A program made the position numbers and the translations under genes. The notes under the pieces are model-generated. The model was not told where the DNA came from, did no database searches, and saw only the letters and a list, made by a program, of their open reading frames with translations. Shown in pieces: positions 50,559 to 55,500 of a DNA stretch of 64,000 nucleotides; the first letter of the stretch is position 1; each line of letters begins with the position of its first letter. This stretch comes from the human T2T-CHM13v2.0 reference genome, Homo sapiens: positions 8,768,001-8,832,000 of the forward strand of contig CP068257.2 in NCBI GenBank assembly GCA_009914755.4, read 5' to 3'.

Positions 50559-52592
50559 AACTTCTTTGTGATGTGTGCATTCATCTCACAGAGTTGAACC
50601 TTTCTTTTGATTGGGCAGTTTGAAAACAGTCGTTTTGTAGAATCTGCAATCAGATGGGTTTCAGCGATTTGAGTCTTTTGGTGAAAAAGGAAATATCAAA
50701 AAATAAAATGTAGACAGCAGCTTTCTGAAAAACATCTTTGTGATGTGTACATTCATCTCACAGGGTCGAAACTTTCTTTTGATTGAGCAGTTTGGAAACA
50801 GTCTTTTCGTAGAACCTGCAAAGTGATATTTGTGAATTGTTTGAGGCTTATGTTGAAAAAGGAAATATCTTCACGTAAAAACTAGACTCACGTTTCCTGG
50901 GAAACTTCTTTGTAATGGGTGCATGCATCTCAAAGGGTTGAATCTTTCTTTTGATTGAGCAGTTTGGAAACAGTCTTTTTGGAGAATCTGCAAAGGGATG
51001 TTTTTGAGCAGTGTGAGGCATGTGGCAAAAAGGAAATATCTTCATATAAACACTAGACAGAAGCATTCTGATAAATCACTTTGTGATGCGTGCATTCATC
51101 TCACAGAGTTGAATTTTCTTTCATTGAGCAGTTTAGAAACAGTCTTTTTGTAGAATATGCAAAGGGATATTTGTGAGCTTTTTGAGGCCTATTGTGAAAA
51201 AGGAAATCTCCACAAATAAAATCTAGACAGAACCCTTCTGAGAAACTTCTTTGTGATGTGTGCATTCATCACACAGAACTGAACCTTTCTTTTGATTGAG
51301 CAGTTTGGAAACAGTCTTTTCATAGAATCTGCAAAGGAAAATTCGTGAATGCTTTGAGGCTTATGGTGAAAAAGAAGTATCTTCACATAAAAGCTAGACA
51401 GGAACGTTCTGAGAAACTTCTTTGTGATGTGTGCATTCATCTCACACAGCTGAACTTTCATTTGATTGAGCAGTTTGGAAACAGTCCTTTAGTAGAATCT
51501 GCAAAGGGTTCTTTATGAGCAATTTGAGGCCTATCGTGAAAAAGGGAGTATCGACAAATAAAAACTAGACAGAAAATTTCTGAGAAACTTCTCTGTGATG
51601 TGTGCATTCATCTCACAGAGTAAAAACTTTCTTTGATTGAGCAGCTTGGAAACAGTCTTTTTGTAGAATCTGCAAAGGGATATATGTAGGCAGTTTCAGG
51701 TCTATCGTGAAAACGGAAATATCTTTGCATAAAAACTAGATAGAAGGTTTCTGAGAAAATTCTTTGAGATGTGCTCATTCGTCTCACAGATTTGAAGTGT
51801 TCTTTTCATTGACCAGCTTGGATAGTCTTTTTGTAGAATCTGCTTTGCGATATTTGTGAGCCCTTTGAAGCCTATGGTGAAAAAAGAAATAACTTCACAC
51901 AAAAACTAGACAGAAGTTTCTGAGAAACTTCGTTGTGATGTGTGCATTCATCCCAAAGACTTGAACCTGTCTTTGGATTGAGCAGTTTGGAAACAGTCCT
52001 TTGTAGAATGTACAAAGGGATATTTGAGATCCCTTTTTGGCCTATGGTAAAAAAGGAAATGTCTTCACATAAAAACTAGACAGAAGCATTGCGAGAAACT
52101 TATTTTTGGTGTGTGCATTCTTCTCACAGAGTTGAACCTTTCTTTAGTTAGAGCAGGTTGGAAAAAGTCTTTTTGTAGACTCTGCAAAGTGATAATTTGA
52201 ATGCTTTAAGACTTATGGTGAAAAAGGAAATATCTTCACATAAAAACTGGATGGAAGCTTTCTGAGAAACTTCTTTGTGATGTGTGCATTCACCTCACAG
52301 AGTTGAACCTTTCTTTTGATTGAGTAGTTTGGAAATAGTCTTTTTGTAGAATCTGCAAAGGGTTATTTATGAGCAGTTTCAGGCCTATGGTGAAAAAGGG
52401 AGTATCAACAAATAAAACTAGACAGAAACTTTCTGAGAAACTTCTCTGTGATGTTTGCATTCATCTCACAGAGTGGAAGCTTTCTTTGATTGAGAAGTTT
52501 GGAAACAGTCTTTTCATAGAATCTGCAAAGGGATATATGTAGGCAGTTTGAGGTCTATGGTGAAAACGGAAATATCTTCACATAAAAACTAA
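50559..52592 (+). repeat. Alpha satellite, + orientation
   Basis: Same monomer family, running up to the orientation switch. Confidence 0.95.
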
Positions 52593-55500
52593 CAGTTCAA
52601 TGGGAAGAAACTACTTGTGTGTGATGAATGCACACGTCACAAAGGAGTTAGTCAGAAAACTTCTTTCTACTTTTAATGTGAAGATATTTCCTTTTTCACC
52701 ATATGCCTCAATGTGTTCCCAGGTATCCCTTTGCAGATTCTACAAAAAGACTGTTTCTAAACTGCTCAATAAACAGAATGGTTCAACCCTGTGAGACGAA
52801 TGTGCACATCACAAAGAAGTTTCTCAGAAAACTTCCTTCCCGTTTTTATGTGAAGAGATTTCCTTTTTGAATATAGGCCTCAAAGCACTCCCAAATATAC
52901 CTCTGCAGAATCTACAAAAAGACTGTTTCCAAAGTGCTCAATCAAAAGAATGTTTCAACTCTGTTAGATGAATGCACACATCAGAAAGTAGTTTCTCAGC
53001 AAGCTTCTCACTAGTTTTTAGGTGAAGATAGTTCCTTTTTCAACGTGGTTCTCAAAGCACTCAAAAATATCCCTTTGCAGACTCTAGAATAACAGAGTTT
53101 ATTAACTGCTCAATGAAAAGAAAGATTTACCTCTGTGAGATGAATACACATATCTTAAAGCAGCTTCTCAGAATGCTTCTTTCTAGTTTTTATGTGAAGA
53201 TATTTCCTTTTTCACCATAGGCCTCAACACACACCTAAATATCCCTCTGCAGATTGTACAAAAAGACTTTCCAAACTGCTCAATCAAAACAAATGTTAAA
53301 CTCTATGAGATAAATGCACACATCACAAAAAGTTTCTCAGAAAACTTTTGTCTAGTTTTTATGTGATGATATTTCCTTATTCACCATAGGCCTGAAAGCG
53401 CTACAAATATCCTTCTGCAGATTCTACAAAAAGACTGTTTGCAAACTGCTCAATCCAAAAAATGATTCAACTCTGTGAGATGAATGCACACATCACAAAG
53501 AAGTTTCTCAGAAACATTCTTTATGGTTTTTCTGTGAAGGTATTTCCTTTTTCACCATAGGCCTCAAAGCCCTCACAAATATCCCTTTGCAGATTCTACA
53601 AAAAGACTGTTTCCAAACCGCTCAATAAAAAGAATTATTGAACACTGTGAGATGAATGCACACAGATCAAAGAGGTTTCTCAGAGTCCTTCAGTCTGGTT
53701 TTTATGTGAATATATTTCCTTTTACAACATAGGCCTCAAAGCGCTCCAAATGTCCATTTGCAGACTCTACAAAAAGACTGTTTCCAAACGGCTCAATCAA
53801 AACAAAGTTTCAACTCTGTGTGATTAATGCACACATCATGAAGAAGTTTCTCAGAATGCTTCTGTCTAGTTTTTATGTGAAGATACTTGCTTTTTCACCA
53901 TAGGCCTCAAAGTGCTCACAAATATCCCTTTAGAGATTCTACAAAAATACTTTTTCCAAATTGCTCAATCAAAAGAAAGGTTCAATCCTGTGAGATGTAT
54001 GCACACCACAAAGAGGTTTCTCAGAAAGCTTCTCTCTAGTTTTTACATGAAGATATTTCCTTTTTCACCATAGGCCTCCAAGTGTTCACAAATATCCCTT
54101 TGCAGATTCTACAAAAAGACTCTTTACACATTACTCAATCAAAAGAATGTTTCATCTCTGTGAGGTGAATGCTCACATCACCAGGATGTTTCTCAGAAAG
54201 CTTCTGTGTAGTTTTTATGTGAAGATATTTCCTTTTTCACCATACGCCTCAAAGGGCTCACAAATATCCCTTTGCAGTTTTTAGAAGAAAAGAGTTTCCA
54301 ATCTTCTCAATGAAAAGAAAGAGACACATCTTGGAGATGAATGCACATATCACAAAGCAGTTTCTGAGAAACATTCTGTCTAGTTTTTATGTGAAGGTAT
54401 CTCCTTTTTCACCACAGGATGCAAAGCACTCAAAATTGTTGCTTTGCAGATTCTACAAAAAGTTTGTTTCCACAGTGCTCATCAAAAGAAAGGTTCACCT
54501 CTGTGAGATGAATGCACGTGTCAAAAAGAAGTTTCTCAGAAAGCTTCTATTAAGTTTTCATGTGAATGTTTCCTTTTTCACCATGAGCCTCAAAGTGCTC
54601 ACAAATATCCAGTTGAGGAATATTTACAAAGACTATTTCCAAACCGCTCAACCAAAAGAAAGGTTGAACTGTGTGAGATGAATGCACACATCACAAAGGA
54701 GTTTCTCAGAAACCTTCTTTATAGTTTTTCTGTGAAGATATTTCCTTTTTCATCATAGGCCTCAAAGCCCTCACAAATATCTCTTTGCAGATTCTACAAA
54801 AACACTGTTTCCAAACCACTCAATAAAAATAATTATTGAACTTTTTGAGATGAATGCACACATCTCAAAGAAGTTTCTCAGAAACCTTCAGTCTGGTTTT
54901 TATGTGAATATATTTCCTTTTTCACCATAAGCCTCAAAATGCTCCAAATATCCATTTGCAGGTTCTACAAAAAGACTGTTTCCAAACGGCTCAATGAAAA
55001 GAAAGTTTCAACTTTGTTAGATGAATGCATACATCACTGAGAAGTTTCGCAGGAGAATTCTGTCTAATTTTTATATGAAGACATTTCCTTTTTCACCACA
55101 GGCCTCCATCTGCTCACAAATATCTCTTAGCAGATTCTACAAGAACAGAATTTCCAGACTGATCAAAGAAAACAAACGTTTTTCTCTGTGAGATGAATGC
55201 ACACATCACAAAACTGTTTCTCAGAACCTTCTTTATACTTCTTATGTGATGATATTTCTTTTTTCTCCCTAGGACTCAAAGAGCTCAAAAATATCCCTTT
55301 GCAGATTCTACAAAAATATTGTTTCCAAACTGCACAATCAAAAAAATAGTTCAACTCCATGAGATGAATGCATACGTCACAAAGAAGTTTCTCAGAAACC
55401 TTCTTTATAGTTTTTATATGAAGATATTTCCTTTTTCACCATAGGCCTCAAAGTGCTCAGCAATATCCCTTTGCAGATTCTGCAAAAAGACTGCTTCCCA

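What the first reader, a model, noticed from the sequence alone, without database searches (positions are those of the whole stretch)
52540..52660. Head-to-head orientation switch inside the alpha-satellite array at about 52.59 kb
From 31.2 to 52.59 kb the monomers are in consensus (+) orientation (…ggcctatggtgaaaaaggaaatatcttcacataaaaactagacagaag…ttctgagaaacttctttgtgatgtgtgcattcatctcacagagttgaacc…). After the junction (…tatcttcacataaaaactaacag|ttcaatgggaagaaactacttgtgtgtgatgaatgcacacgtcacaaaggag…) all monomers out to 64 kb are reverse-complemented (…gttcaactctgtgagatgaatgcacacatcacaaagaagtttctcagaa…). The breakpoint falls within a monomer, and about 15 bp (ttcaatgggaagaaact) are atypical at the join. 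This creates a large inverted-repeat (palindrome-like) satellite configuration. Monomers immediately left and right of the breakpoint are only as similar as ordinary neighbouring monomers (for example tatatgtaggcagtttgaggtctatgg versus the reverse complement tacctgggaacacattgaggcatatgg), so it is not a recent perfect palindrome but an old inversion or juxtaposition of two arrays.
Basis: seen in the sequence. Interest (0 to 1): 0.55.

Follow-up and report, generated by a model that had tools for sequence, protein, structure and literature searches.

The report
Old inversion breakpoint in alpha satellite
The strand flip at 52.59 kb is a real, ancient end-joined breakpoint in decayed monomeric alpha satellite, most likely one end of a ~21 kb inversion whose other end is the array edge at 31.2 kb; this is an ordinary, already documented kind of feature in such DNA.

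Summary
About 111 alpha-satellite monomers lie on + (31212-52591). About 48 lie on - (52591-62893). They meet inside a monomer at 52591/52592, joining + profile position 19 to - position 99 with ~1 bp of microhomology. There is no higher-order repeat and no mirror symmetry: every register is 78-79% identical. The "atypical 15 bp" are in-register alpha satellite of a minority monomer sub-class, not filler.

The junction is not an assembly artefact. Eight contigs from separate human-associated metagenome assemblies carry it base for base. Four more diverged versions (85-92%) show that it arose once and was later duplicated.

Best explanation (0.62): a two-break inversion of the whole + block. 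The 12 left-most + monomers are the same two-class layer as the - monomers just right of the junction, and the 94-monomer core between them is a different type. The half-monomers at 31.2 kb and 52.59 kb fit together into one monomer. The last 9 bases of the + block recur once in the flank, 4 nt from the left boundary.

Strand switches in divergent alpha satellite are already well documented, so interest is low. Noticed in passing: the flank is a decayed rDNA pseudo-unit, and four old L1 fragments interrupt the array, one of them internally inverted.

The parts
31199..31207 (+). TAAAAACTA in the non-satellite flank. It is an exact copy of the last 9 bases of the + block (52583-52591) and is followed by the 4-nt filler ATTA (31208-31211). 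Candidate templated insertion at the left inversion junction.
   Evidence: This is the only occurrence of the 9-mer on either strand in the non-alpha 1-31211. P~2.5e-4 for lying within 6 nt of the boundary. The looser earlier test gave p 0.002-0.017.
31212..31289 (+). Left-edge partial monomer, profile positions 91-169. Proposed half of the monomer split by the inversion.
   Evidence: nhmmer profile alignment. Joined to RC(52600-52686) it gives a 171-bp monomer that aligns to profile 1-169 at 135 bits. It classifies as the T sub-class, like its partner.
31212..34695 (+). Domain E: 12 full monomers of the two-class 'type 2' layer on +. Interrupted by L1 fragment 32744-33914.
   Evidence: All 12 of 12 carry variants diagnostic of the - arm, against 14/94 in the core (held-out test, Fisher 4e-9). 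It shares the T and A sub-classes with P.
34700..52572 (+). Domain C: 94 'type 1' core monomers on +, with a modal period of 171 bp. Interrupted by L1 fragment 48990-50544.
   Evidence: Diagnostic variants are nearly absent. Within-domain identity is 0.818. It joins E in phase at 34695/34700.
52573..52591 (+). Last + monomer, truncated after profile position 19 (TATCTTCACATAAAAACTA).
   Evidence: Profile alignment. The same end is seen in five paralogous junction versions.
52591..52592 (.). The head-to-head join itself, with ~1 bp (A) of microhomology and no filler.
   Evidence: It is identical in 8 independent contigs.
52591..52686 (-). First - monomer, profile positions 99 to 1, T sub-class. 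It carries a locus-specific 3-bp deletion and two substitutions (AACAGTTCA where the ancestral sequence was AACTGCTCA).
52591..58169 (-). Domain P: 32 full monomers of the same 'type 2' layer as E, on -, with a modal period of 172 bp.
   Evidence: E-P identity is 0.809, against 0.795 for C-P.
58174..62893 (-). Domain T: 15 monomers of a third type on -. Its consensus differs from C and P at 9-11 positions. Interrupted by L1 fragment 58673-60877.
   Evidence: The strongest compositional changepoint lies at idx 137/138. Within-domain identity is 0.824.

Best explanation
The strand switch is one of the two junctions of an old two-break inversion in dead (non-centromeric, diverged) monomeric alpha satellite, repaired by non-homologous end joining. 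Before the event the array ran on the - strand in the order flank | core type C | two-class type (E then P, contiguous) | type T. One break fell at the flank/array boundary. The other fell inside a T-sub-class monomer of the E-P layer. The C+E block, now 31212-52591 (21.4 kb including ~2.7 kb of L1), was re-inserted in reverse. This put E next to the flank and joined the former array edge (monomer position 19) to the broken monomer (position 99). Shown here: the strand switch, its exact position, the absence of symmetry, the layer identities, the fit of the two half-monomers, the reality of the junction in independent data, and its age (it predates duplication into at least 5 copies). Inferred: that both junctions come from a single event, and that the 9-nt TAAAAACTA plus ATTA at the left junction and the 9-bp overlap (positions 91-99) are templated or fill-in products of end joining. 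The junction has no evident function. Its consequence is structural, because it cuts E off from P for in-register exchange.
For: (1) Strand map, GC skew and pJalpha orientation all switch at 52591/2. (2) The layer type changes exactly at the strand switch, and the far-left block E matches P. Variants chosen from P vs C are present in 12/12 held-out E monomers against 14/94 core monomers (Fisher 4e-9). Variants chosen from E vs core separate the last 15 core monomers (mean 0.33) from the first 15 P monomers (1.67; p=0.015). E and P share the same two sub-classes. Un-inverting the block gives three contiguous layers instead of four. (3) The truncated monomers at the two ends are complementary: left edge = positions 91-169 and junction = positions 1-99. 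The composite is 171 bp and aligns end to end at 135 bits. Chance of such a phase fit is ~0.05-0.11. (4) Both halves classify as the minority T sub-class (+14.1 and +3.3, each above the maximum of the other class), and their markers 24A and 115G are linked (p=0.009). (5) The terminal 9-mer of the + block occurs once in 31.2 kb of flank, 4 nt from the left boundary (P~2.5e-4). (6) The junction is real: the identical 75 bp is present in 8 independent contigs. It is also old: four diverged paralogous versions carry the same join. (7) Inversions are a documented feature of divergent alpha satellite (bioRxiv 10.1101/2021.07.12.452052; PMC9549924).
Against: The left junction could not be found in independent data, and no un-inverted copy or outgroup sequence was available. 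The reconstruction therefore rests on internal consistency. Similarity does not decay with distance within a layer, so contiguity of E and P cannot be shown by a similarity gradient across the restored join. An older-younger-older arrangement (E-C-P) is also what the expanding-centromere model predicts without moving E. The 9-bp overlap is simply consensus sequence in both copies, so it carries little independent weight. The size of the block at the time of the event is unknown, since C could have expanded afterwards.
Confidence: 0.62

Rival explanations
1. The inverted segment is the - arm (P, T and beyond), and the second breakpoint lies to the right of the window. E-C-P would then be a symmetric layer pattern produced by expansion of core C inside an older E/P array.
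For: Symmetric older-younger-older layering is the standard model. C has a 171-bp modal period and P a 172-bp one, which the review's criterion reads as C being younger. The - arm runs off the window, so a distal breakpoint cannot be excluded.
Against: This requires three coincidences. The break must fall exactly on the C/P layer boundary (about 3 boundaries in 153 monomers). The array's left-edge monomer must happen to start (position 91) where the junction monomer stops (position 99), and be of the same minority sub-class. The terminal 9-mer of the + block must occur by chance at the left boundary (P~2.5e-4).
Confidence: 0.17
2. Two separately evolved blocks were juxtaposed. For example, a pericentromeric segmental duplication carrying E+C was inserted in opposite orientation next to P, or a deletion brought two already opposed arrays together.
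For: The locus lies in duplication-rich DNA. The junction itself exists in at least 5 paralogous versions, and the flank is a transposed rDNA relic. The two arms differ more than arbitrary splits of the + arm do: nearest-neighbour same-side fractions are 91/83% against 47-73%.
Against: The differentiation between the arms is explained by C versus P, and E matches P. Juxtaposition does not predict complementary half-monomers of the same sub-class. It also does not predict the shared 9-mer.
Confidence: 0.14
3. A decayed fold-back (hairpin) inverted duplication: the two arms were once mirror copies and have since diverged or lost the centre by asymmetric deletion.
For: The configuration is head to head with no spacer. 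A 9-bp inverted repeat appears at the reconstructed ancestral flank/array boundary.
Against: No anti-diagonal or register stands out. Offsets -12 to +12 are all 0.788-0.799, and all blastn registers are 78-79% with a maximum of 83%. The arms join at different monomer positions (19 and 99). The monomers abutting the join belong to different layers.
Confidence: 0.03
4. Assembly artefact: a chimeric join or a flipped contig.
For: Satellite DNA is prone to mis-assembly, and the source assembly is unknown.
Against: An identical 75-bp junction, with 98-100% flanks of at least 200-300 bp on both sides, is present in 8 contigs from 8 different samples and assemblies; 24 contigs were read and the index lists 36 blocks. 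Four diverged paralogues carry the same join. The monomers here are ~80% alike, so they assemble uniquely. The reconstructed ends overlap by 9 bp and carry 13 nt of extra sequence, which a computational flip would not produce.
Confidence: 0.01

Closest known systems
Inversion breakpoints ('strand switches') in divergent/monomeric alpha satellite, catalogued genome-wide in T2T-CHM13 (Altemose et al., bioRxiv 10.1101/2021.07.12.452052; Miga & Alexandrov review PMC9549924; layer maps in Shepelev et al. 2009, PMC2729386)
   Same: Diverged monomeric A-type alpha satellite with L1 insertions and an abrupt change of monomer strand. [quoted passage not shown]
   Different: Nothing differs in kind. What is added here is a base-level reconstruction of one event (both junctions, split monomer, layer identities), and the finding that the junction was later duplicated into at least 5 diverged copies.
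Symmetric dead layers of the 'expanding centromere' model
   Same: A younger-looking core (C) is flanked on both sides by the same older-looking two-class layer (E and P).
   Different: The flanks are in opposite orientation and the scale is ~20 kb, not a whole centromere. The out-of-phase join and the complementary half-monomers point to rearrangement and not to in-place expansion.
[quoted passage not shown]
   Same: A strand switch within alpha satellite.
   Different: Those lie in homogeneous higher-order arrays, are recent and (on chr1) polymorphic. This one lies in a ~80%-identity monomeric array with no HOR and predates several duplications.
Fold-back inverted duplications / palindromes
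   Same: Head-to-head arms with no spacer.
   Different: No arm-to-arm correspondence above family background. The join connects different monomer positions and different layers.
Polymerase-theta-type end joining with templated insertions (own knowledge of the pathway; not tested enzymatically)
   Same: Minimal microhomology at the join. A short insertion at one junction is identical to the sequence at the tip of another broken end.
   Different: This is only a sequence footprint in one ancient event. Chance (P~2.5e-4) or an alpha-satellite relic cannot be fully excluded.
L1 twin-priming inversions
   Same: The window also holds an inversion made by a different, well-known route: the L1 at 48990-50544 has its 3' end on - and its RT segment on +.
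   Different: No L1 sequence or poly-A lies at either alpha-satellite junction, so the satellite inversion is not L1-mediated.

Membership tests
Monomeric (non-HOR) A-type alpha satellite, 'dead layer' (SF4+ in the sense of PMC9549924) | Tandem ~171-172 bp monomers | tested here: met
   159 profile hits. Modal period is 171 bp in C and 172 bp in P.
Monomeric (non-HOR) A-type alpha satellite, 'dead layer' (SF4+ in the sense of PMC9549924) | No higher-order periodicity; neighbouring monomers ~70-85% identical | tested here: met
   Mean identity is 0.814-0.823 at all lags 1-24 on + and 0.772-0.798 on -. There is only a weak period-3 signal in + idx 57-95 (z~3).
Monomeric (non-HOR) A-type alpha satellite, 'dead layer' (SF4+ in the sense of PMC9549924) | pJalpha sites present, CENP-B boxes absent | tested here: met
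   30 exact pJalpha sites and 0 CENP-B boxes, not even the core motif.
Monomeric (non-HOR) A-type alpha satellite, 'dead layer' (SF4+ in the sense of PMC9549924) | Assignment of each layer to a named SF/monomer class (Ga, Ha, Ka, OaNa ...) | not testable with these tools
   The class HMMs and consensus sequences are not in the held papers. Only three local types (C, E/P, T) could be defined.
Chromosomal inversion (two-break, end-joined) | Abrupt, complete change of repeat strand at a point | tested here: met
Chromosomal inversion (two-break, end-joined) | Two junctions whose broken ends are reciprocal (un-inverting restores continuity) | tested here: met
   Positions 91-169 at 31212 and positions 1-99 at 52591 restore one 171-bp T-class monomer and a contiguous E-P layer. 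A 9-mer links the two junctions. The continuity on the flank side cannot be checked.
Chromosomal inversion (two-break, end-joined) | Existence of the un-inverted arrangement in another haplotype, paralogue or outgroup | tested here: inconclusive
   All 9 relatives of the junction ORF start at the junction ATG, and none extends upstream as an un-inverted copy would. The database holds only sporadic human DNA, so absence is weak evidence.
True palindrome / fold-back inverted duplication | Arm-to-arm mirror correspondence above repeat-family background | tested here: not met
Symmetric layers of an expanding centromere | Same layer type on both sides of a different core | tested here: met
   E and P flank C.
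Symmetric layers of an expanding centromere | Concordant orientation of flanks and in-phase layer boundaries | tested here: not met
   E is on + and P on -. The C|P boundary is out of phase (positions 19|99), while E|C and P|T are in phase.
Templated-insertion end joining (TMEJ-like footprint) | Inserted bases at a junction identical to sequence adjoining a break end of the same event | tested here: met
   TAAAAACTA at 31199-31207 equals the last 9 nt of the + block. It is unique in the flank, P~2.5e-4.
Templated-insertion end joining (TMEJ-like footprint) | Dependence on polymerase theta / alternative end joining | not testable with these tools
   This is an ancient germ-line event, so only the sequence footprint is available.

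The most novel reading that the evidence does not exclude
The two junctions (31.2 kb and 52.59 kb) may be a preserved footprint of a single multi-end repair event in satellite DNA. The flank end would have been extended by run-off copying of the tips of two other broken ends (9 nt TAAAAACTA from the + block end; 9 nt at positions 91-99 from the split monomer) before ligation. The resulting junction was then carried by duplication into at least 5 now-diverged copies. It could therefore serve as a unique, datable marker for tracing how this rDNA-relic/alpha-satellite duplicon spread among pericentromeric or acrocentric regions.
Probability: 0.25. Interest if true: 0.4.

Novelty: new member of a known kind. 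Interest (0 to 1): 0.22.

Why it matters
As a class, this is routine. Divergent alpha satellite is known to be full of inversions, and complete assemblies already annotate strand switches. The modest value lies in three things. First, it is a worked example where both ends of a satellite inversion can be read at base level and the pre-inversion layer order reconstructed. Second, a head-to-head satellite junction in an assembly can be validated, and shown to be multi-copy and ancient, using stray human DNA in public metagenome assemblies. Third, the unique join sequence could be used as a marker for the history of the duplicon that carries it. There is no indication of a function.

Tried and rejected
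(1) Mirror symmetry or a palindrome: rejected. (2) Higher-order repeat: none found, and the weak period-3 signal in + idx 57-95 could not be turned into a stable three-class cycle or used as a polarity marker. (3) Foreign filler at the join: rejected, because the bases align in register and paralogues read consensus there. (4) Break-associated mutation cluster: at first it looked striking, with 12 differences against a mean of 4.0 and 0/153 monomers as high. I withdrew it after comparing with the correct T-sub-class reference and the ancestral sequence inferred from five copies, which gave 8 differences against 3-10, with 2/12 as high. (5) The rare variant A argument for the 10-mer TAAAAACTAA: dropped, because the tenth base belongs to the - monomer. 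The loose 10-mer test was only suggestive (p 0.002-0.017) and was replaced by the exact terminal 9-mer test. (6) Similarity gradient across the restored E-P join: uninformative, since there is no distance decay within layers. (7) Age ordering C < P < T: dropped, because the T consensus carries a pJalpha-type box and cannot be called older. (8) Exact-pattern scans for the junction in GTDB genome contigs and JGI metagenome contigs: no hits, which is uninformative. (9) Independent evidence for the left boundary: five look-ups or searches found nothing. (10) L1-mediated origin of the satellite inversion: rejected, because there is no L1 or poly-A at either junction.
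Full report
OBSERVATION. A profile built from the window's own monomers places about 111 alpha-satellite monomers on the + strand, from 31212 to 52569 plus a partial one to 52591. 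About 48 lie on the - strand, from 52591 to 62893. GC skew is positive over 31-52 kb and negative from 53 kb. Exact pJalpha sites (CTAYGGTGRAAAAGGAA; motif from the supplement of PMC9549924) number 21 on +, all left of the join, and 9 on -, all right of it. There are no CENP-B boxes. blastn of the left arm against the right arm gives 357 opposite-strand HSPs, all satellite, and 4 same-strand HSPs, all L1 against L1. The strand switch is therefore real and complete.

EXACT JOIN. Profile alignment, together with four diverged paralogous copies of the same junction, fixes the join at ...CACATAAAAACTA | ACTGCTCAATGGG.... This joins + monomer position 19 to - monomer position 99, with about one shared A. 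In this window the - side reads AACAGTTCAAT, which is two substitutions from the consensus AACTGCTCAAT that the paralogues retain. It also carries a private 3-bp deletion a little further in.

NOT A PALINDROME, NOT A HOR. Mean monomer identity is flat at 0.814-0.823 for lags 1-24 on + and 0.772-0.798 on -. Mirror anti-diagonals at offsets -12 to +12 are all 0.788-0.799. Every blastn register gives 78-79% over ~6.1 kb, and the maximum is 83%. Locally, the nearest inverted arms are 83% complementary with a 76-nt spacer, and the longest perfect arm is 17 nt.

NOT AN ARTEFACT, AND OLD. A 64-codon ORF that begins at the junction (52600-52794) is on record on at least 24 contigs (36 index blocks) of ENA metagenome assemblies. 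The eight contigs fetched come from eight samples. All contain the 75 bp around the join identically, with 98-100% identity for at least 200-300 bp on both sides. Lower overall identities are due to abrupt, family-level chimeric ends typical of short-read satellite assembly. A homology search with the ORF found nine relatives, and every one starts at the same ATG. Contigs for four of them (L010-L013; two are labelled human gut and human lung metagenomes) are 85-92% identical to the window and carry the same + to - join, with their own substitutions close to it. So the junction arose once and was later copied, as part of a larger segment, to at least five places. No relative extends upstream as an un-inverted copy would, but the database holds only stray human DNA.

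LAYER STRUCTURE. Six variants that are rare in the + core but common in the - arm mark sharp domains. E covers idx 0-11 (31293-34695, +), where 12/12 monomers carry at least one variant. C covers idx 12-105 (34700-52569, +), where 14/94 do. P covers idx 106-137 (52690-58169, -), where 23/32 do. T covers idx 138-152 (58174-62893, -), where 4/15 do. E was held out when the variants were chosen (Fisher 4e-9 against C). In the reciprocal test, variants chosen from E against the core separate the last 15 core monomers (mean 0.33) from the first 15 P monomers (1.67; p=0.015). E and P share two sub-classes, 'T' and 'A'. Same-class pairs across E and P are 80-89% identical, against about 75% between classes. 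The E|C and P|T boundaries are in phase, and C|P is the out-of-phase strand switch. The modal period is 171 bp in C and 172 bp in P. The strongest compositional changepoint overall is P|T near 58.0 kb. The T consensus differs from C and P at 9-11 positions and carries a pJalpha-type box with G, so I do not assign relative ages.

RECONSTRUCTION. The array's left-edge monomer starts at profile position 91 (31212), and the junction monomer stops at position 99. RC(52600-52686) joined to 31212-31289 gives a 171-bp monomer that aligns to the profile end to end at 135 bits, compared with 147-170 bits for intact neighbours. Both halves classify as the minority T sub-class (+14.1 and +3.3, each above the maximum for the other class), and their markers 24A and 115G are linked in intact monomers (p=0.009). 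The last 9 bases of the + block, TAAAAACTA, occur once in the 31.2 kb of non-satellite DNA, at 31199-31207, which is 4 nt from the left boundary (P~2.5e-4). Un-inverting 31212-52591 therefore restores one whole monomer and a contiguous E-P layer, with the order flank | C | E-P | T on one strand. I take this as the best explanation: a two-break, end-joined inversion of the C+E block. The short extra sequences are possibly templated during repair, but that part is inference.

RIVALS. If the - arm were the inverted piece, the break would have to coincide with a layer boundary, the phase and sub-class fit of the two half-monomers would be chance, and so would the 9-mer. Juxtaposition of unrelated blocks predicts none of these either. 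A decayed fold-back is excluded by the lack of any mirror register. The artefact explanation is excluded for the 52.59 kb join. The weak point of the favoured model is that the left junction could not be found in independent data and no un-inverted copy was available.

WITHDRAWN IDEA. Relative to the global consensus, the 35 positions next to the break carried 12 differences, more than any of the other 153 monomers. Measured against the T-sub-class consensus, using the majority sequence of the five junction copies, the count is 8 against 3-10 in intact T-class monomers, with 2 of 12 as high. There is no evidence for break-associated mutagenesis.

CONTEXT AND COMPARISON. [quoted passage not shown] The review and the layer paper list inversions and L1 insertions as hallmarks of dead monomeric layers. 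This feature belongs to that known class. The window's flank is a decayed rDNA pseudo-unit, which is also a described pericentromeric phenomenon (PMC5381670). Four 5'-truncated L1 fragments interrupt the array.

VERDICT. The feature is an ordinary kind, a new member of a known kind. Interest is low.

Noticed in passing
window 1-29320 (18S 25392-27260, 5.8S 28318-28469, mir-663 24519-24608, all +): The non-satellite flank is a decayed ribosomal DNA pseudo-unit. It contains intergenic-spacer-like (CT)n tracts, 5'ETS, a full-length 18S (1346 bits), ITS1, 5.8S (117.6 bits, with CpG-to-TpG changes) and part of ITS2. It ends abruptly near 29320 with no 28S. CpG o/e is 0.64-0.67. Such relics near centromeres are described in PMC5381670.
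   Followed up: partly
window 48990-50544: An L1 insert with an internal inversion. Its 3' end is on the - strand (48990-49478; 89-91% to the other L1 3' ends) and is joined to an ORF2 reverse-transcriptase segment on the + strand (RVT_1 profile 1-105 in 49885-50571). This is the twin-priming structure. The alpha monomer resumes ~107 bp out of register, which suggests a target-site deletion.
   Followed up: partly
window 32744-33914, 48990-50544, 58673-60877, 62894-64000: All four L1 fragments have their 3' end (poly-T) on the left, so they lie on the window's - strand whichever satellite arm they are in. They sit at only two monomer sites, both T-runs: position ~86-88 in the + arm (twice) and position ~12-17 in the - arm (twice). 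Each differs by 5-9% from the majority of the others, so they are old elements.
   Followed up: partly
window 8656-16489: Long pyrimidine-rich low-complexity tracts, (TTTC)n, (CT)n and (CTCTGT)n, of 0.3-1.1 kb each, giving AT skew down to -0.73. They are consistent with rDNA intergenic spacer.
   Followed up: no
window 22590-23208 (- strand): Three sub-threshold matches to SRP RNA (35-45 bits), taken to be Alu fragments. They lie inside what would be the 5'ETS/promoter-proximal part of the rDNA relic.
   Followed up: no
window 42.9-48.9 kb (+ monomers idx 57-95): A weak three-monomer periodicity in the core layer (autocorrelation of PC2/PC3 at lag 3 is +0.4, z~3; lag-3 identity up to 0.842). 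This may be the trace of an ancient trimeric unit. It is absent next to the junction.
   Followed up: partly
window 52.6-58.2 kb (domain P): Mean identity within P peaks at a lag of 15 monomers (0.814 against ~0.787). The paralogue L012's - side matches 55158-55587 (90.3%) better than it matches the junction-adjacent monomers (85%). This hints at an old ~2.6 kb duplication inside this layer.
   Followed up: no
loci L010-L013 (ENA metagenome contigs): Human satellite DNA is present in gut, lung and other metagenome assemblies in enough depth to recover at least five paralogous versions of one junction. L013 is ~99% like the window on the + side but ~85% on the - side, which suggests a mosaic or gene conversion between copies, or a chimeric contig.
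   Followed up: partly
window 29321-31198: A 1.9 kb AT-rich (36% GC, CpG o/e 0.20) stretch of unidentified non-satellite sequence lies between the rDNA relic and the alpha array. It has no alpha-like profile hit.
   Followed up: no
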